IMG/VR virus record: IMGVR_UViG_3300002307_001842
Span: 1-36,839 of that record
Strand: one strand, 5' to 3'
DNA length: 36,839 nt
DNA from: a virus
Lineage: Duplodnaviria > Caudoviricetes
This document shows, in pieces, positions 3,326 through 14,850 of this stretch. Position 1 is the first letter of the stretch, and the number at the start of each line of letters is the position of its first letter. Position numbers and translations under genes: made by a program. The notes under the pieces were generated by a model. The model saw nothing but the letters and a program-made list of their open reading frames with translations. It was not told the DNA's origin and searched no databases.

Positions 3326-3689
3326 ATTATTCAATTTAAATCCAAGTTATTTGCTAGTCAAACCTTCATTGACTGTTAAACAACAATTTCAAACTATTTT
3401 AAGTCAAAGTATTGATGACCTAACTGTCTTTATTTTTGACGATAATGACATAGATATTGATTGGCTATTGAGTGTAGCAGGGCAAGTCGATTGCGTTATT
3501 ATCGACATAGATAACTGTGATAAGTTAACTAGCAAGTTTGTCGTTTTTCTGTTAGCTCAGGGAAATACATTCTATATAACGATGGACGAAATTACTCCAT
3601 ACGGTCTGATTTCAAAAAATCGAATTTATGACCTTAATCAAATTGTCGAACAACTAAATGAGGATGATGATGAAGAACTTGAAGACTAG
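3285..3689 (+). CDS. Hypothetical protein (acidic C-terminus)
   Basis: ORF coupled between neighbours; start MSSGKITVITPPD. Confidence 0.7.
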   Translation: MSSGKITVITPPDKLFNLNPSYLLVKPSLTVKQQFQTILSQSIDDLTVFIFDDNDIDIDWLLSVAGQVDCVIIDIDNCDKLTSKFVVFLLAQGNTFYITMDEITPYGLISKNRIYDLNQIVEQLNEDDDEELED

Positions 3690-3915
3690 ACTTGGCGTTA
3701 CTGTGAAAGATCATGAAAATATTGCACAGGCACTTCGCCGTCTTAAAAGGAAAGTAGAAGATTCTGGAAAATTTGAAGTATTGAGAAAGAAAGAATCTTA
3801 CGAAAAGCCGACTACAAAGAGAAAGAGAGAAGCAGGTGCTGCTAGGGCTCGCTATCGTAAGAAATTGGAAAAAGAAGCAGCGGCTTTAAAGGCATTACAG
3901 CAATATAAACGTTGA
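3658..3915 (+). CDS. rpsU: Phage-encoded 30S ribosomal protein bS21 (exact start uncertain)
   Basis: VTVKDHENIAQALRRLKRKVE.SG...LRKKESYEKPTTKRKR..AARAR signature. Confidence 0.92.
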   Translation: MRMMMKNLKTRLGVTVKDHENIAQALRRLKRKVEDSGKFEVLRKKESYEKPTTKRKREAGAARARYRKKLEKEAAALKALQQYKR

Positions 3916-3939
3916 CATACACAAAAAACCTGTTACAAT
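3912..3939 (+). promoter_or_regulatory. sigma70-type promoter with extended -10
   Basis: TTGACA-16 nt-TACAAT preceded by TG. Confidence 0.6.
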
Positions 3940-3966
3940 ATAAATTATTCAAGACGCGAGTAATTT

Positions 3967-4530
3967 ATGGCAAAAGTAGATTGTATGATCGATTTAGAAA
4001 CTCTGGCAACATCTCCCGATGCTGCTATTCTTACAATCGGTGCAGTTAAATTTGATCCGTTCGGCAATGACGTAGACTTTGAAGAAAAAGACAAGTTCTA
4101 CGTCAAAGTTGATTTAGATAGCTGCAACGATCTTAACCTTACCGTTAGTGAAGATACACTTAATTGGTGGGCTACTCAATCAAAAGAAGCACAGGAAGAA
4201 GCATTTAATTCCGAAGGTAGGATTCATATAGAAGATGCATTTGCAGGACTATACAAATTCTGCTGGGGTTCTCAACGTGTATGGTCAAATGGTGCAGGAT
4301 TTGATGTAGTAATTTGTGAAACTGTTTTTAACCGTATACATAAAGCAATCCCATGGTCTTATTGGCAAGTGCGAGATGTGCGAACAATGTTTGATCTCGG
4401 CATTGACCCAAAGAGACCGGCAGTGACTGCACATAACGCTTTAGAAGATGCTATTGCGCAAGCAATATCAATTCAAAATGTTTGTCGAAAATTGAAAGAA
4501 CACGAAATCAATCCATTTACAAAGGTATAA
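3967..4530 (+). CDS. DEDDh 3'-5' exonuclease
   Basis: MIDLETL, WSNGAGFD, RDVRT and HNALEDA motifs. Confidence 0.9.
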   Translation: MAKVDCMIDLETLATSPDAAILTIGAVKFDPFGNDVDFEEKDKFYVKVDLDSCNDLNLTVSEDTLNWWATQSKEAQEEAFNSEGRIHIEDAFAGLYKFCWGSQRVWSNGAGFDVVICETVFNRIHKAIPWSYWQVRDVRTMFDLGIDPKRPAVTAHNALEDAIAQAISIQNVCRKLKEHEINPFTKV

Positions 4531-4531
4531 T

Positions 4532-4720
4532 ATGAATACAGACCAAGCAACAACTGCATTAAATCTCGTTAATGTTGCGATCGATACTATCCAAAAAATT
4601 GCATTACAAGAACAGAAAGTCACAGGTTCTAGGAGTCGAGATATAAGATATGTACAATCGATTATTAAACTGCAAGAAAAAAAACAATCCGTTGAAAACT
4701 TTTTAAATATAATGAACTAA
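4532..4720 (+). CDS. Small hypothetical protein
   Basis: 62 aa ORF tightly packed between neighbours. Confidence 0.55.
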   Translation: MNTDQATTALNLVNVAIDTIQKIALQEQKVTGSRSRDIRYVQSIIKLQEKKQSVENFLNIMN

Positions 4721-5253
4721 TGTCTATTAAAACAGATTGGAAAAGCGTTTCGTCATATAATATCCCGTTAAAGGATTGTAATGTTCCTTATGATATTACT
4801 GAGGTATTTAAGAAGCATAAAACCAAAAAGTATGTATATGTTATAACACATAACAATCTCATCATTAAAGTTGGTATGAGTGCTGCTCGTCAGAAAACTC
4901 TAGGAGAACGATCTTACCGACAAGTTGGTCACTCTAAATCATGGGATAAGCCTCTTACTGGTTCTAGTGGATCGGATTGGTATCATGTTGAAGATATCGT
5001 TAGGAGTAAACATGGTTACGAAATGCACAAAGATAATATAGTAATAACTGTTTACGATTTTACTGATTACCCATTTGTCTCAATCAACCAAGAAGCCGAA
5101 ATTTTAAGAGCAGAATCTGAATTGATTCAACAATATACTAATATTATGGGCGAAAAGCCAATTGGCAATATTACAAACGATGAGACAATTTTTAATAAAG
5201 GTCTTATCCTTCAAGAAACGTATGATAATTTATTTGATGAAGTTAATGGATAA
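4720..5253 (+). CDS. Hypothetical protein, GIY-YIG-like nuclease fold
   Basis: YVYVI...IIKVGMS...R, later AESELI...KPIGN pattern. Confidence 0.55.
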   Translation: MSIKTDWKSVSSYNIPLKDCNVPYDITEVFKKHKTKKYVYVITHNNLIIKVGMSAARQKTLGERSYRQVGHSKSWDKPLTGSSGSDWYHVEDIVRSKHGYEMHKDNIVITVYDFTDYPFVSINQEAEILRAESELIQQYTNIMGEKPIGNITNDETIFNKGLILQETYDNLFDEVNG

Positions 5254-5548
5254 ACAAACTAAAGAAATTTTTTGTATTACTCAAGAAGAGTGTGCAGAGG
5301 TAACTCAAGCCATTTCTAAGATATTTAGATTTGGTATTGATACCACATGGAATGGTCGTACTAATCAAGAACGACTTGAAGAAGAACTTGGCGATCTCAA
5401 AGCAATGCTGCGCATTTTAGAAGTGTCCGGAATTGTACGAGAAGAAAAAGTAATCGAAGCCTCTAAGGCTAAGATAGAAAAATTATCTGAATGGTCAAAC
5501 ATTGTTTTGTCAGAAATGAAAAGAAACAATATACTAAAAGATAAATAA
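5246..5548 (+). CDS. MazG-like NTP pyrophosphohydrolase
   Basis: EECAEV.QAISK..RFG...LEEELGDL; real start ATG 5246 rather than 5162. Confidence 0.85.
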   Translation: MDKQTKEIFCITQEECAEVTQAISKIFRFGIDTTWNGRTNQERLEEELGDLKAMLRILEVSGIVREEKVIEASKAKIEKLSEWSNIVLSEMKRNNILKDK

Positions 5549-5552
5549 TTTC

Positions 5553-5604
5553 GTAGATGCTATCGAGATCTACAAAATTCTTGCTTAATTAAAGGAGAAA
5601 CAAT
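5553..5604 (+). promoter_or_regulatory. dnaK leader: hairpin plus ROSE-like anti-SD
   Basis: GTAGAT/ATCTAC stem, then TTCTTGCTT able to pair with AAAGGAGAA. Confidence 0.55.
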
Positions 5605-7509
5605 ATGAGCATAAAATCACCCATTATTGGCGTGGATTTGGGAACCACCAATTCATGCGTAGCAATTCTAGAAAATGGAGTTGTTAAAATAATTGAAAAT
5701 TCAGAAGGCGCAAGAACTACGCCATCGATTATTGGCTACACCGACGAAGAAATTCTGGTAGGTGCATCGGCTAAACGACAAGCAGTAACTAATCCAAAAA
5801 ACACACTATACGCAGTTAAGCGGCTTATCGGTCGTAAATTTGAAGAACAAGCAGTACAAAAGGATATTGATTTAATGCCTTATGAAATTGTTAAGGCAGA
5901 TAACGGTGATGCTTGGGTCAAGGCAAACGACAAGGAACTTGCACCACCACAGGTAAGTGCAGAGGTTCTTCGTAAGATGAAGACCGATGCAGAATCTTAT
6001 TTAGGTAAGGAAGTTACACAGGCAGTTATTACTGTACCGGCGTACTTTAATGATAGCCAGCGGCAGGCAACTAAAGACGCGGGTAAGATTGCAGGGTTAG
6101 AAGTACTTCGTATTATCAATGAACCTACTGCGGCTGCACTTGCATATGGTGTGGATAAGGCAGATAAGAGAGATCGCAAGGTTGCAGTGTATGATCTAGG
6201 TGGTGGTACGTTTGACGTGAGCATTATCGATATCATTAATATCGACGGGGAAAAGCAGATTGAAGTGCTTTCCACGAACGGGGATACATTCTTAGGTGGT
6301 GAAGACTTTGACCAACGTTTAATGGATTATCTTGTTAGTGAATTTAAGAAGGATTCAGGTATTAATCTTAAGAATGACACCCTTGCACTACAACGTCTTA
6401 AGGAAGCAGCAGAAAAGGCAAAGATTGAATTGTCTAGTACTACACAGACTACCGTAAATCTTCCATATTTAACTGCTGATGCCGGTGGACCAAAGCATTT
6501 AAATGTTACTATTACCCGTGCTAAGTTTGAATCAATGGTTGAAGATCTCATTACACGTAGTATCGAACCATGTAAGATTGCATTAAAGGATGCTAATGCT
6601 ACCGCTAATGATATCGACGAAGTTATCTTAGTAGGCGGACAGACACGTATGCCTAAGGTACAGGAAGAAGTGGAACAGCTCTTCGGTAAGCCTCCAAGAA
6701 AGGATGTTAATCCAGACGAAGCAGTTGCCGCAGGTGCCGCAATTCAAGGTGCAGTATTAGGTGGTGATAAGACCGATGTTCTATTACTTGATGTTACTCC
6801 ACTTAGCCTTGGCATTGAGACTATGGGCGGTGTGTTTACTAAATTGATTACTAAGAACACTACTATCCCAACTAAGGCAAGCCAAACATTTAGTACTGCG
6901 GAAGATAATCAGCCTGCTGTCACAATTAAGGTGGCACAAGGTGAACGTGAACTTTATCGCTATAATAAGGAACTTGGTACTTTTAACTTAGATGGGATTG
7001 CTCCTGCACCGCGCGGTATGCCACAAGTCGAAGTTACTTTTGATATTGATGCAAATGGTATTATGCATATTAGCGCCAAGGATAAGGGAACTGGTAAGGA
7101 AAATAAAATCACCATTAAGTCCGATTCGGGTCTTAGTGAGGCAGAAATTGAACGTATGGTTAGTGAGGCAGAAGAAAATGCAGAAGCTGATGCAAAGGTT
7201 AGAGAAGTAATCGAAGCACGTAATCAAGCAGATGCACAAAGCCATTCTCTTAAGAAGGATTATGAAGAATTTAAGGACCAACTTACAGAAGAAGAACAAA
7301 CTGCGTTCGAGTATGCATTGAAGGCAGTTGACGAATCAACTTCAACCGAGGATGTTGAAGCAATTAAAGATTCAGTGCAAAAGTTATTCGAATCAGCAGG
7401 TCCTGTTTTTGCAAAGAAGCAGACAGCTGAAGAAGCAAAGAATAACCAAGCAGCGGATCAACCTGTGGATGCTGAATTCACGGAAGTTGACAATAATAAC
7501 GAAAAGTAA
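5605..7509 (+). CDS. dnaK: Chaperone DnaK (Hsp70)
   Basis: [32 protein letters not shown] motifs; full length. Confidence 0.99.
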
Positions 7510-7519
7510 TATACTAACT

Positions 7520-7576
7520 ATGTGGGGTGCTCGGGTGAGGCCCCACATTTTTCTTGCTTATTAAAGGAGAATTAAA
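7520..7576 (+). promoter_or_regulatory. hsp20 leader: GC hairpin plus ROSE-like anti-SD
   Basis: ATGTGGGG/CCCCACAT stem then TTCTTGCTTATTAAAGGAGA. Confidence 0.6.
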
Positions 7577-7996
7577 ATGGCACAATTAAAAACAATTAAC
7601 ACAAACGAATTAGCAAATTTAAGTAGATTTTTAGTGGGAGTAGACCGTATTATAAATTCTCATTATGTTCCGTCGACTAATTACCCCCCGCACAATGTAG
7701 TTAAGTATGATGATAACAACTACGGAATTGAAATAGCAATAGCAGGATTTTCAAAGGATCAAATTAGTTTAGAAGTCAACCAAAATATTATTTCGGTTCG
7801 TGGAGAACGCATCGAAAACGAAGAACACTTCGAATATCTATTTAAAGGGTTAGCTGCTCGTAATTTTGTAATTCAATTTCCACTATCTGAATTTATGGTA
7901 ATTCGCGAGGCAGAGGTTAAGGACGGGATGCTTAAGATTTCACTTGAATATGTCGTTCCTGATTCATTGAAACCTCGTCAAATTAAAATTAAATAA
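7577..7996 (+). CDS. ibpA: Small heat-shock protein Hsp20 (IbpA-like)
   Basis: NYPPHNV, IEIAIAGF, GLAARNF, DGMLKI.L...P...KPRQI. Confidence 0.93.
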   Translation: MAQLKTINTNELANLSRFLVGVDRIINSHYVPSTNYPPHNVVKYDDNNYGIEIAIAGFSKDQISLEVNQNIISVRGERIENEEHFEYLFKGLAARNFVIQFPLSEFMVIREAEVKDGMLKISLEYVVPDSLKPRQIKIK

Positions 7997-8043
7997 CTAA
8001 TAATCCGGGGGAAGAATTCTTCCCCCACTCTTTGGAGAATAAT

Positions 8044-8346
8044 ATGGCCGGTACCGATGTTGTCTTTGACAAAAAGACTAAACTTAATGTTTCAGAACCT
8101 ACTTTATGGAAAGTAGTCTTTCTTAATGATGATGTTACACCGATAGATTTTGTAATTTCATTACTTATAGAAGTATTCAAACATAATTTCGAATCTGCTA
8201 GAACAGTTACTATGCAAGTACATGAACAAGGTTCGGGCATTGCAGGAGTATATAATTATGAAATTGCAGAAGCAAAGACATCAGAAGCAACTAACTTGTC
8301 TCGTGCTAATGGGTTTCCTCTTCAAATTAAAATGGTGGAAGAATGA
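8044..8346 (+). CDS. clpS: Clp protease adaptor ClpS
   Basis: KVVFLNDDVTPIDFV..L..VF, MQVHEQGSGIAGVY, FPL. Confidence 0.95.
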   Translation: MAGTDVVFDKKTKLNVSEPTLWKVVFLNDDVTPIDFVISLLIEVFKHNFESARTVTMQVHEQGSGIAGVYNYEIAEAKTSEATNLSRANGFPLQIKMVEE

Positions 8347-8891
8347 GTTTAAAAGAAGCTACTAAAGATAATCATACCCGCGCAGAGCGGCAACCTTTTG
8401 TAAAGATTTTGTTTTCCGGAAATATTGATCCAACACTTTATGCTCAATATTTAAAGAACCAATATCAATGTTATGCAATTTTGGAAACTTGTGCAATGGA
8501 TCACGAGATTTTCAAAGAACTACCCGATTTCCGTAGAGCTCCGCTAATCGATGCAGATTTTAAAGAATTATGGGGAGAAGATAATGAAGAATTACCAGTA
8601 CAACTGCCGGTAATTGAAGATTATTCAAATTATATCATGAGCATTAAAGACGATCCTGAGAAGTTAATGGCGCATGTATATGTTCGGCATTTAGGAGACT
8701 TAGCTGGTGGTCAAATGATTTCTAAAAGAGTTCCGGGGCACGGCAAGTATTACCAATTTGAAGATGCGGATTTATTAAAGACTGCTATTAGAGAACGAAT
8801 AAACGATAACATGGCCGATGAAGCAAATTTATGCTTCGAATATGCAATTCAGTTATTCGACGAGATGATGACATTAGTTGACCATGAATGA
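8343..8891 (+). CDS. Biliverdin-producing heme oxygenase
   Basis: LKEATKDNHTRAE proximal His; AHVYVRHLGDLAGGQMI distal helix. Confidence 0.93.
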   Translation: MSLKEATKDNHTRAERQPFVKILFSGNIDPTLYAQYLKNQYQCYAILETCAMDHEIFKELPDFRRAPLIDADFKELWGEDNEELPVQLPVIEDYSNYIMSIKDDPEKLMAHVYVRHLGDLAGGQMISKRVPGHGKYYQFEDADLLKTAIRERINDNMADEANLCFEYAIQLFDEMMTLVDHE

Positions 8892-9582
8892 TTTTTCGAA
8901 TACATTACTTTCTATACAGCATTCCTTAGAAGAGAGCTTTAATAGAACAGGTACCGAAATCCAAGAAGAAGGAATGGAGAGATTCAATCAAGCGAACTGG
9001 ATCAATCGTGTTTGGTCCAGTAAGTCCTATCGACGGGCGCATCTTAATGTAGTTGATTGTAGAGAAAGTAGCGGATTATGGATGATGCATTGTTGTATCT
9101 TCCCGCATCTACATAATACTGCTCCAATTTATGGGTTTGATATTGTAGCATTGCGTAATAAAATTACAGGATGCTTTCACGATTTCAGTCCAACTGCCGA
9201 TAAACAACATCCTATGATTAATTGGTTTTCGACCGAATCTAAAAAACTTAATTGGAATAGAACACGTGAGTTACCAGACTGGGCTAAACTTATCTTTTCT
9301 AACGACGTAATTGCTGCTAGCAATGTACAAGAAGAGGATGAACTAAATCAAATTGTTGAGCTTGTGAAAAGAACAACAGAGTATTATCTTAATAATGTTA
9401 GGCAATCTAACGATGCCATAGACGAAACAATTATCTTTCAAAACTATTATTCATATAATCAAAAACAAAATCCACACTTATATACTCCTAGGATTATGGA
9501 GAGTTTAGGACTCGATCACGAAGGAGTAACTATATTTGTTGAGAAATGTTTGTTCCCGGAAATATTCAATTTACTACATTAG
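8884..9582 (+). CDS. Ferredoxin-dependent bilin reductase (PcyA/PcyX-like)
   Basis: RRAHL, MMHCCIFP, PIYGFD, FHDFSP, RELPDWA..IFS, QKQNP motifs; coupled to heme oxygenase. Confidence 0.88.
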   Translation: MNDFSNTLLSIQHSLEESFNRTGTEIQEEGMERFNQANWINRVWSSKSYRRAHLNVVDCRESSGLWMMHCCIFPHLHNTAPIYGFDIVALRNKITGCFHDFSPTADKQHPMINWFSTESKKLNWNRTRELPDWAKLIFSNDVIAASNVQEEDELNQIVELVKRTTEYYLNNVRQSNDAIDETIIFQNYYSYNQKQNPHLYTPRIMESLGLDHEGVTIFVEKCLFPEIFNLLH

Positions 9583-10723: not shown

Positions 10724-11608
10724 ATGAAAATATGGATTTTATCAAAAAAAGAAGGATTTGAGTACGAAAACGGAAGACTGATTGAAAGTTTCAATAGTAA
10801 AGGTATTGAAGCAGAAGTGGTAGATCCTAGTTCTTTTGATATCATCGTAAATAAAGATATTAAGCAGGGATTGCGCTATAACGGAAGTCCTGTGGAATTA
10901 CCAAATTTATTATTAGTAAGATTCGGTGCCGGTATTAGTAAATTTATGCTGGCATTGATTCGACAATTAGAAAAATCTGGTGTGGTTTGCATTAATTCAG
11001 CAAATGCTGTCGAAACAGTTAAAGACAAGTTATATACATCACAAATTTTAAGTTCACAAAGTATTGCAATTCCTAATACGATGATGGTTCGATTTCCAGT
11101 TGACCCGGAAGTAGTTGACGAAGAAATTGGTTACCCTTGTGTAGTGAAGATTGTCACCGGTAGTTACGGCGAAGGAGTCTATCTTTGTGATCGCAAAAAG
11201 GACTTTAAAAAATTAATGGAGTTCATCGAAACACTCAAATCTTCAAAAACACTATTAGTACAGGAATACATGGGAGAACGTCCTGGCGAAGACTTACGAG
11301 TGCTTGTTGTTGGCGGTAAAGTAATTGGTGCTATGAAACGTAGCGCCCCGGAAGGTGATTTTAGAGCAAATATTACAAACGGCGGCACCGGGCAAGCATA
11401 CGAACTTACCGACGAAATCGAATACATTGCTCGAGAAACTGCAAAAGTGTTAAATCTCGACATTGCCGGAATTGATTTGTTGTTTGACTCTAGAGGATTT
11501 AGAGTTTGTGAGGCAAATTCAAATCCTGGATTTAGTGGTTTTGAAACTTATTGCGATATTGATGTTGCTGAAGTAATTACAGACTATATCAAATTCCGCT
11601 TGTCATAA
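10724..11608 (+). CDS. rimK: RimK-family ATP-grasp alpha-L-glutamate ligase
   Basis: DKLYTSQIL, P.VVK...GSYGEGV, VQEY, DLRVLVVGG, DFRANITNGG, GIDLL, EANSNPGF. Confidence 0.93.
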   Translation: MKIWILSKKEGFEYENGRLIESFNSKGIEAEVVDPSSFDIIVNKDIKQGLRYNGSPVELPNLLLVRFGAGISKFMLALIRQLEKSGVVCINSANAVETVKDKLYTSQILSSQSIAIPNTMMVRFPVDPEVVDEEIGYPCVVKIVTGSYGEGVYLCDRKKDFKKLMEFIETLKSSKTLLVQEYMGERPGEDLRVLVVGGKVIGAMKRSAPEGDFRANITNGGTGQAYELTDEIEYIARETAKVLNLDIAGIDLLFDSRGFRVCEANSNPGFSGFETYCDIDVAEVITDYIKFRLS

Positions 11609-11627
11609 AAAGTCCCACATTTTATAA

Positions 11628-11744
11628 AACAAAGGTTGCGCACCGTGGAATAACAGTAAGAAGATCGGTGCTCACTCTGAAGAACGTAAGAAAAAAATAT
11701 CCGAGTCAGTCAAAATGAAAGAACTCGGATATAACGGACAATAA
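11628..11744 (+). pseudogene. Homing-endonuclease C-terminal remnant (NUMOD3-like)
   Basis: Start-less frame NKGCAPWNNSKKIGAHSEERKKKISES...GQ*. Confidence 0.65.
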
Positions 11745-11754
11745 GTGCCCCTGT

Positions 11755-11846
11755 TTAAAATGTGAGGGTAGCGAATCTTCACATTTACGGCCGGAGCCGC
11801 CGTGACGCCTTAGGCACAGATAACTGCGACGGTCCTAAGGTGAATC
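11755..11846 (+). ncRNA. Candidate structured RNA, three hairpins, with 23S rRNA H69-H70-like sequence
   Basis: Stems 11758-67/11777-86, 11787-91/11799-803, 11806-14/11834-42; contains TAACTGCGACGGTCCTAAGGT and GGTAGCGAAT; strand not certain. Confidence 0.55.
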
Positions 11847-11943
11847 TTAACTTTCCCCGGATGATACAGATTTTTTACCTTCGTCATCTAGATTAAATTG
11901 ATTAATCTTTTCTTCGGCATGCACACGACCGCGTTCAATAGTT

Positions 11944-12495
11944 TTAAAACCAAAGCATTAACCCTTGTAACATCAGGATAATGCCAGTAATGGCAAATAC
12001 AAAACTACCGTAAAACAGGTAAGCACTTGCTGATAAAATGCTTGTTGATAACACTACAATTGCTAATTGATATGATGTACTTGCATATGCTATCCAAGGA
12101 CTTTTCTTTTTAGCAACATCACGTTCTGTTTCTAATTTCTTAGCCGCAGCAAACAATTCTTGCTTTCCTTCGTTATTTACCGGGTCACTTTCGTAACTTG
12201 CGGCCTTTCGGGTAAAGTTTTCTTTTAACGCAACGTCTTTCGTTTCCACTGCTGCTAATTCGTACATTGTTTGCTTAACACTTTTTGCTTGATAGAAATT
12301 CCAAATGTCATTAGCTTTAATAGTATTATTCATAATAGTACTATTAATTCCATTGTTAATAAACGTATTTGCTGCTAACAATGCTGCAAAGATATTAATA
12401 ACTAATCCAATTCTACCTTTAATTTTTAAATCTGTGTTTTGAGTTTTTTCTTCAACTTTTCTCATTGCTTTCAATCCAACATCTTCAAGTGCCAT
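11944..12495 (-). CDS. DUF4337-like membrane protein
   Basis: TM - ANDIWNFYQAKSVKQ - coiled coil - QLAIVVLS..IL TM pair. Confidence 0.8.
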   Translation of the reverse strand: MALEDVGLKAMRKVEEKTQNTDLKIKGRIGLVINIFAALLAANTFINNGINSTIMNNTIKANDIWNFYQAKSVKQTMYELAAVETKDVALKENFTRKAASYESDPVNNEGKQELFAAAKKLETERDVAKKKSPWIAYASTSYQLAIVVLSTSILSASAYLFYGSFVFAITGIILMLQGLMLWF

Positions 12496-14369: not shown

Positions 14370-14850
14370 TCTGTATGTGTAGTTCTACCGAAAGGCTGAA
14401 GTCGCAAGGGTGTGTGATACAGACATTAAGAATTGTTGTAATTCCATTAATGAATTAGGATTAGTTAAAGGTAGAATTCGACGAAGTAGTAAGTAGTTTG
14501 GGGTAGACGGGAAGTTCGACTCTTCCCCACCTCCACCATAAAGCATATTAGTGAGAGCCGTTAAACCGGAATTATGCGGATTCTCATAAGTGATTCCGGG
14601 GCTAGTATGTTTTATAATGGGGGTGAATTGGAATCGATACACAAATCAGGGACTATGGAGAATCGGCAATACGAAAGTCGTTAGGGTTGGGATTTCCTGG
14701 CCGAAGAAGTAAAACCTATAGACGCAAACGCATCTAAATTTGAGTATATGACAGTTGACGTTGATTTGTTCGCAAGCAACGATGCAGCTGAAATGGTAGC
14801 TTAAACACCTACAACTCCGGGGCAGTTATGCCTTGTCAAATAAAATAACA
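14370..14850 (+). ncRNA. ssrA: Circularly permuted (two-piece) tmRNA; outer boundaries approximate
   Basis: T-arm plus CACCTCC-A-CCA ends at 14538; GGGGGTGAATTGGAATCGA 5' end at 14619 gives a 7 bp acceptor stem with G3.U70; tag frame 14724-14804 ANASKFEYMTVDVDLFASNDAAEMVA*. Confidence 0.9.

What the first reader, a model, noticed from the sequence alone, without database searches (positions are those of the whole stretch)
11755..11846. Phage three-hairpin element that mimics 23S rRNA helix 69-70, immediately downstream of rimK
Seen: TAACTGCGACGGTCCTAAGGT (11821-41) matches the conserved 23S segment TAACTATAACGGTCCTAAGGT at 18/21 positions. The 23S continuation GGTAGCGAAAT appears separately as GGTAGCGAAT in the loop of hairpin 1 (11767-76). 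Hairpin 2 holds TTACGGCCG and GCCGCCGT, both reverse complements of the adjacent 23S stretch ACGGCGGCCGTAA. So three rearranged pieces of one ~45 nt rRNA region sit in a GC-rich 90 nt island of an AT-rich genome. Established: this region (E. coli ~1900-1940) forms bridge B2a, contacts RRF and release factors, is modified by RluD/RlmH/RlmD, and contains the I-CeuI site. Inference: a phage RNA acting as an rRNA decoy (for ribosome-directed toxins or rRNA-binding factors) or pairing with H69, working with phage RimK, bS21 and tmRNA. I know no described family for it.
Basis: partly seen in the sequence, partly recalled or inferred. Interest (0 to 1): 0.85.

Follow-up and report, generated by a model that had tools for sequence, protein, structure and literature searches.

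The report
Phage RNA complementary to 23S rRNA
The flagged stretch is one copy of a conserved, knotted RNA-like element found in hundreds of large lake-phage contigs, sitting just after a stop codon on the strand opposite to rimK, and its least-changing bases are the exact complement of the ribosomal RNA stretch that joins the two halves of the bacterial ribosome, so the phage likely pairs an RNA with its host's large ribosomal subunit, which is untested.

Summary
The element is real, but probably read on the wrong strand and not tied to rimK. It belongs to a phage family of about 75-110 nt (roughly 600-2000 viral stretches), mostly one copy per 260-370 kb genome. Three stems and a pseudoknot covary. 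No Rfam family or paper matched. The 23S match is not significant in this window alone, but it is conserved in relatives chosen without it: CCTAAG in 78 of 84. The second loop has three versions, each matching a strand of the H67-H70 junction. The element follows a minus-strand stop codon (97 of 145 loci; 47 of 65 in a second set), wobble pairs fall on that strand (42 vs 16; 8 vs 1), and promoter motifs point away. The RNA is therefore likely antisense to 23S 1919-1937, not a mimic. Best reading (0.5): a 3'-end RNA that binds free or immature 50S subunits. No transcript evidence. The scan noted apparently the same family earlier on other genomes.

The parts
11745..11846 (-). whole structured element (three hairpins plus 3' pseudoknot tail), likely transcribed on the minus strand
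   Evidence: family alignment and model; strand inferred
11829..11841 (-). guide segment 1, exact complement of 23S 1919-1931 (H69 3' strand and the following CUAAG); in this copy 11834-11840 is masked by pairing with 11808-11814
11815..11828 (-). small hairpin in the place of the H69 loop; one pair is G-U on minus and A-C on plus; AAC kept in 55 of 62 relatives that have this hairpin
11802..11814 (-). complement of 23S 1826-1834 (H67 5' strand; 11802-11810) and the masking strand (11808-11814); present in a subgroup only (GACGCC in 39 of 201)
11787..11803 (-). hairpin 2: 5-bp stem and 7-nt loop that forms the pseudoknot
   Evidence: covariation in all 4 stem pairs tested
11758..11786 (-). hairpin 1 with guide segment 2 in its loop (11767-11775, complement of 23S 1929-1937)
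11747..11753 (-). 3' tail that pairs with the hairpin-2 loop (pseudoknot); one pair is U-G on minus and C-A on plus
   Evidence: 3 pairs tested, all cells paired, all with compensatory changes
11847..11945 (-). 3' remnant of a gene that is intact in relative L034; its stop codon (11847-11849) abuts the element
11691..11732 (-). 10-bp hairpin followed by a U run on the minus strand; possible terminator of the transcript that carries the element (not called by the consensus scan)
   Evidence: one search did not list it
11606..11647 (-). relic tail of an older copy of the element (34 of 42 identical to the tail of L034)
10724..11608 (+). rimK-like gene, convergent neighbour, not part of the element
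   Evidence: Pfam PF08443 and PF18030

Best explanation
The element is a conserved folded sequence that large freshwater phages likely transcribe as the 3' end of a minus-strand message, and its two guide segments, which are exact complements of 23S rRNA 1919-1937, would base-pair with helix 69-70 of free or immature host 50S subunits and likely hinder their maturation or joining to 30S. Shown: the family, its stems and pseudoknot, the complementarity, the position after stop codons, about one copy per genome. Inferred: the strand, release as a stable 3' fragment (the pseudoknot would protect the 3' end), binding to 23S, and the effect on the host. Because the upstream gene is almost any gene, the RNA probably acts in trans. 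In this copy guide 1 is masked in cis except for a 5-nt toehold, so binding would need strand displacement.
For: Conservation independent of the search pattern: CCTAAG in 78 of 84 and GGTCCTAAGG in 56 of 84 elements found by the pseudoknot alone; the loop motif in 49 of 54 matches found by the 3' motif alone. Second loop in 95 pseudoknot-selected elements: 61 match 23S 1929-1937, 21 hold the 6-mer of 1964-1969, 9 match about 1970-1978, 4 other. The third class goes with the H67 partner strand (7 of 9 against 1 of 86). Strand: minus-strand ORF ends within 15 nt in 97 of 145 loci against 14 on plus, and 47 against 6 of 65 in the metagenome set. Origins of G-U on minus 42 against 16 on plus, and 8 against 1. 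Promoter-like TAAATA 43 minus against 1 plus in 201 flanks. Upstream genes fall in 68 families of 158. Predicted binding to 23S 1900-1945 is -8 kcal/mol or better for 98 of 99 minus strands against 17-40 of 99 for four control rRNA pieces (this follows from the complementarity, no pseudoknots modelled). The target 20-mer is identical in all five rRNAs tested. Helices 67-71 are unstable in 45S precursors and H69 is part of bridge B2a (PMC3737534, passages). A PNA against H69 blocks translation (PMC12828698, passage citing Kulik 2017).
Against: No transcript, binding or phenotype data. The G-T juxtaposition closing loop 1 (173 of 195) would be a wobble pair on plus and was left out of the 42 vs 16 count because both bases belong to the conserved motif. 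Counts share ancestry, the tree is from about 100 nt, and about 9 of the 210 parsed elements were mis-parsed. Substitutions are not clearly wobble-tolerant: U1923-to-C (11) fits pairing, but A1937-to-G (5), A1936-to-G (2) and G1922-to-T (4) do not. In 11 of 61 class-A elements both guides cover 1930-1933 and would compete. The invariant core CCTAAGG is nearly self-complementary, so both strands display a similar small loop. A phage needs ribosomes, so the benefit of blocking 50S is not obvious.
Confidence: 0.5

Rival explanations
1. Plus-strand miniature of the 23S H67-H69-H70 junction that acts as a decoy for a host nuclease, modifying enzyme or ribosome factor.
For: In the fullest members the order H67 5' strand, small hairpin, H69-like hairpin, CCTAAGGTAG is colinear with 23S. 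When loop 1 lacks the 1930-1937 strand, GTAG more often follows CCTAAG in cis (16 of 21 against 11 of 61). Conservation peaks sharply on CCTAAGG. G-T closes loop 1 in 173 of 195. Loops are A-rich on plus (by eye).
Against: Neighbouring genes run on minus with a stop codon a median of 3 nt away; promoter motifs point away; wobble pairs favour minus. Colinearity is expected of a captured rDNA piece in either orientation. Hairpin 2 pairs in a register that differs from the 16S loop it resembles (recalled 16S structure).
Confidence: 0.15
2. Cis-acting 3'-UTR element: the ribosome ending translation unwinds the first stem, and the exposed guides catch the 50S subunit released at that stop codon, holding subunits on phage messages or slowing recycling.
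For: Very short and constant distance from the stop codon (97 of 145 within 15 nt); H69-H70 is exposed on split 50S (own knowledge).
Against: About one copy per genome behind unrelated genes (68 families of 158); in this window it follows a gene remnant; the next gene often has its own promoter motif.
Confidence: 0.15
3. Self-cleaving ribozyme or 3'-end processing or terminating structure; the rRNA likeness is ancestry or chance and no rRNA is contacted.
For: Size, pseudoknot, invariant loop bases and position after stop codons are typical of small ribozymes (own knowledge). One genome has a second copy with the pseudoknot and loop 1 but a different first loop. Single-sequence rRNA coverage is close to the genome background.
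Against: No Rfam ribozyme or terminator family matched on either strand. Two adjacent universal 23S segments and alternative loops from the same junction are kept in sets not selected for them.
Confidence: 0.1

Closest known systems
Loop-presenting antisense RNAs (CopA/CopT of plasmid R1, RNA I/RNA II of ColE1; recalled)
   Same: short structured RNA that shows complementary bases in loops
   Different: target is host rRNA and not a cis-encoded partner; two separate short guides; pseudoknot at the 3' end
3'-UTR-derived bacterial sRNAs (CpxQ, MicL type; recalled)
   Same: starts just after a stop codon at the end of a transcription unit
   Different: they target mRNAs with Hfq or ProQ and end in a plain terminator; no processing was shown here
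rRNA-pairing guide and chaperone RNAs of archaea and eukaryotes (C/D, H/ACA, U3, snR30; recalled)
   Same: two short elements complementary to neighbouring rRNA segments
   Different: no box C/D or ACA motif conserved in the alignment; bacterial virus; the guides cover 1919-1937 without the unpaired gap of a pseudouridylation pocket
Synthetic PNA against H69 (Kulik 2017, as cited in PMC12828698)
   Same: same rRNA target, base pairing
   Different: synthetic oligomer; shows only that the site can be blocked
Ribosomal-protein leaders that mimic rRNA (PMC7247131, search listing only)
   Same: rRNA-like sequence outside rRNA
   Different: they are sense-strand, 5' of r-protein operons; this element lies 3' of unrelated genes

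Membership tests
Any Rfam 15 family | covariance-model match at gathering score | tested here: not met
   none in the region; 3 chance-level hits at E 3.5-6.7; 0 hits at E<=2 in 20 family loci
Known self-cleaving ribozymes (twister, twister-sister, pistol, hatchet, HDV-like, hammerhead) | family core and topology | tested here: not met
   no Rfam hit on either strand; topology compared with recalled folds did not fit
Known self-cleaving ribozymes (twister, twister-sister, pistol, hatchet, HDV-like, hammerhead) | self-cleavage in vitro | not testable with these tools
   needs in vitro transcription
C/D or H/ACA guide RNAs | conserved box C/D or H/ACA motifs | tested here: not met
   consensus and invariant columns of alignment A1 hold none
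Loop-presenting antisense RNAs | conserved complementary bases exposed in loops | tested here: met
   mean unpaired probability 0.66 for guide 2 (77 elements) and 0.45 for guide 1 (99 elements); guide 1 is largely masked in this copy
Loop-presenting antisense RNAs | target encoded on the opposite strand of the same locus | tested here: not met
   no plus-strand promoter motif or gene start is tied to the element
3'-UTR-derived sRNAs | position directly after a stop codon, co-oriented | tested here: met
   97 of 145 and 47 of 65
3'-UTR-derived sRNAs | discrete processed transcript that pairs with a target in vivo | not testable with these tools
   no RNA holder listed
rRNA-mimic RNAs | sense-strand transcript carrying the rRNA sequence | tested here: inconclusive
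   indirect evidence favours the other strand; no stranded reads

The most novel reading that the evidence does not exclude
The RNA is a phage guide or splint for host rRNA: its two guides grip both sides of 23S G1929/G1930 and direct a cut, a modification or the repair of a defence-nuclease break, while the pseudoknot loop and tail, which in most members complement 16S 519-527 and 23S 1099-1105, reach further sites around the A site. This would be a viral RNA built from several antisense pieces of the ribosome's core.
Probability: 0.12. Interest if true: 0.95.

Novelty: categorically new. Interest (0 to 1): 0.78.

Why it matters
I know of no natural bacterial or phage RNA that acts by base pairing with the functional core of rRNA, and my searches found none. 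If these phages use one against H69-H70, it is a new way for a virus to control host ribosomes, directed at a site identical in all five bacterial rRNAs tested. The RNA is under 110 nt, has minimal natural versions of about 75 nt, and can be tested directly with E. coli ribosomes. If the mimic reading holds instead, it points to an unknown host factor that attacks or senses this junction.

Tried and rejected
Link to rimK: rejected (1 of 24 rimK loci; rimK in 1 of 5 element-bearing genomes, where it lies about 0.8 kb away and convergent, so one lineage keeps them close). Hairpin-2 antisense pieces: private to this copy. A single large RNA over 11605-11945 (z -2.6): not kept, because relatives conserve only 11745-11846 and the right part is a gene remnant. 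Homing-endonuclease (NUMOD3-like, recalled motif) remnant at 11628-11744: no Pfam or PHROG match. Binding to 16S 500-545 or 23S 1051-1108: predicted energies no better than controls, and 82 of 124 elements not selected on it have that loop sequence, so it is common but not required. Cellular genomes: of 120 stretches returned (about 130 estimated) only L324 showed the architecture by eye; the rest were rRNA or chance. Annotated phage records: no match. Expression: no RNA holder listed; two RNA contig sets from one sample had nothing laid; this says nothing either way. Two independent DNA runs carry the region, one contig spanning 11346-12700 with 3 differences, so it is not an assembly artefact; three further runs did not cover the element. 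The 31% against 4% coverage by universal rRNA 8-mers is inflated by my search patterns and is not used as the main proof. Host not determined. Literature: seven searches (listings) and passage or supplement look-ups found no description; supplements 1, 2 and 4 of PMC10690425 and the supplement of PMC5737381 could not be searched and could hold this motif as an unnamed candidate.

Full report
Observation. With E. coli rRNA from a fetched record, the 21-mer matches 23S from 1911 at 18 of 21, but the window has a second such match and shuffled windows give 0-2, so the single match proves nothing. rimK (10724-11608) and bS21 (3658-3915) are confirmed by Pfam, and a permuted tmRNA by Rfam. The element itself matches no Rfam family. 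Two independent DNA runs hold the region.

A family. A pattern from the 3' hairpin found 54 viral stretches; 49 of the 54 matches also carry the loop motif upstream, which the pattern did not ask for. A pattern from the two rRNA-like motifs gave about 610 stretches. A pattern from the pseudoknot alone, holding neither 23S motif, gave about 2000; of 114 unique matches 84 passed a strict hairpin test (30 dropped, about 9 of them real members with one mismatch), and of these 78 have CCTAAG and 56 GGTCCTAAGG downstream. A metagenome scan gave about 2000 more. On 43 sequences not selected on the pseudoknot, 96% of cells pair, 9 of 10 pairs show compensatory change, and the three pseudoknot pairs are paired in every cell; slid controls fall to 27-52%. 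A model from 32 members finds one copy in each of five 259-372 kb genomes, one full and one degenerate copy in a sixth, and otherwise only the reverse strand of E. coli 23S. Cellular genomes and annotated phage records hold next to nothing. Twenty family loci gave no Rfam hit at E<=2.

What is conserved. In 95 pseudoknot-selected elements (looser hairpin test), 93 have the core within one mismatch, with the bases equivalent to 23S 1924-1927 unchanged and conservation fading on both sides. The loop of hairpin 1 comes in classes: 61 match 1929-1937, 21 hold the 6-mer of 1964-1969, 9 match about 1970-1978, 4 are other. The third class usually carries the partner strand of H67 downstream (7 of 9 against 1 of 86), and the second class usually extends the core to 1933 in cis (16 of 21 against 11 of 61); these counts share ancestry. 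The 6-mer alone is weak evidence. The small hairpin before the core keeps AAC, as in the H69 loop, in 55 of 62. The family therefore looks like a reduced, rearranged piece of the H67-H70 junction. The commonest pseudoknot loop and tail also match universal rRNA (16S 519-527, 23S 1099-1105), but they vary freely with each other, are absent from this copy, and give no predicted binding above controls; I leave this unexplained.

Which strand. Of 145 elements with at least 400 nt of flank, 97 have a minus-strand ORF ending within 15 nt (median 3 among 119 found) and 14 have a plus-strand ORF ending that close on the other side; the metagenome set gives 47 against 6 of 65. Beyond the other end, TAAATA occurs 43 times on minus and once on plus, TATAAT 49 against 13, in 201 flanks: these promoter-like motifs serve the next minus-strand gene, and none feeds the plus strand. 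Non-standard stem pairs that are G-U on minus arose about 42 times against 16 on plus (the loop-closing G-T, which favours plus, was left out), and 8 against 1 in the metagenome set. In the window the element abuts the stop codon of a minus-strand gene remnant that is intact in L034 and is followed on minus by a hairpin with a U run. I read it as the 3' end of a minus-strand transcript. This is inference; no RNA data were available.

RimK. One of 24 rimK loci has the element within 3 kb, and 1 of 5 element-bearing genomes has rimK. Upstream genes fall into 68 families of 158 and downstream genes into 58 of 181. The neighbourhood is incidental.

Mechanism. On the minus strand the two conserved segments are exact complements of 23S 1919-1931 and 1929-1937, a stretch identical in all five rRNAs tested. 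Helices 67-71 are unstable in late 50S precursors and H69 forms bridge B2a (PMC3737534, passages); a synthetic antisense oligomer to H69 blocks translation (PMC12828698, passage). My best reading (0.5) is a trans-acting RNA that binds free or immature 50S subunits there. Rivals are a plus-strand decoy (0.15), a cis element that catches the subunit released at the stop codon (0.15), and a ribozyme or 3'-end structure (0.1). Against the best reading: no direct data, substitutions that are not consistently wobble-tolerant, overlapping guides in some members, and masking of guide 1 in this copy.

Known or new. It works most like loop-presenting antisense RNAs and 3'-UTR-derived sRNAs (recalled), but fails the membership tests I could run, and its target would be rRNA. 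Seven literature searches (listings and abstract starts) found no description. I read passages of PMC10690425, PMC12828698, PMC3737534 and bioRxiv 10.64898/2026.09.22.753630, and the outline and one section of PMC10085705; I searched the supplement of PMC10085705 and six files of PMC10690425 without a match to this family. Three files of PMC10690425 and the supplement of PMC5737381 could not be searched. Earlier notes of this scan describe apparently the same family on other genomes with the same antisense reading; I saw them after reaching the strand conclusion, and they are not independent evidence.

Verdict. Observation partly confirmed; interpretation partly supported. A real, undescribed phage RNA family, likely antisense to 23S H69-H70, function untested. 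Interest 0.78.

Noticed in passing
window 11606-11744: Between rimK and the element lie a relic tail of an older copy (34 of 42 identical to L034), a second tail-like motif near 11667-11676, and two hairpins; the stretch folds better than shuffles on both strands (z -3.5, -4.6). It suggests repeated replacement of the element at this site. An open frame at 11628-11744 resembles a NUMOD3 motif (recalled) but has no Pfam or PHROG match.
   Followed up: partly
L547 16943-17017 (G006): Second, degenerate copy that keeps the pseudoknot and loop 1 but has a different first loop, also just after a stop codon; either a decayed copy or a sign that the pseudoknot is a reusable module.
   Followed up: partly
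family-wide, e.g. L421, L204, L235: The commonest pseudoknot loop and tail match 16S 519-527 and 23S 1099-1105 (also 23S 1070-1076) in the same polarity as the H69-H70 matches, although they pair with each other and are not required.
   Followed up: partly
L453, L468, L483, L489: Fullest members are colinear with 23S 1826-1933: H67 strand, small hairpin, H69-like hairpin, core; best candidates for tracing the origin from captured rDNA.
   Followed up: partly
L425, L441, L572, L679, L623: Further loop-1 classes with no clear rRNA match.
   Followed up: no
window 11847-11945: Gene remnant: only the 3' end of a 107-aa gene intact in L034 remains, fused behind the DUF4337 gene; the same arrangement is in another sample's contig.
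   Followed up: yes
window 3658-9582 and 14475-14804: The phage carries bS21, a DnaK-like gene, heme oxygenase, a ferredoxin-dependent bilin reductase, a permuted tmRNA and, further on, seven tRNAs.
   Followed up: partly
L324: The only clear copy among cellular genomes is on a 7.6-kb contig of a metagenome-assembled genome, probably misbinned phage DNA.
   Followed up: no
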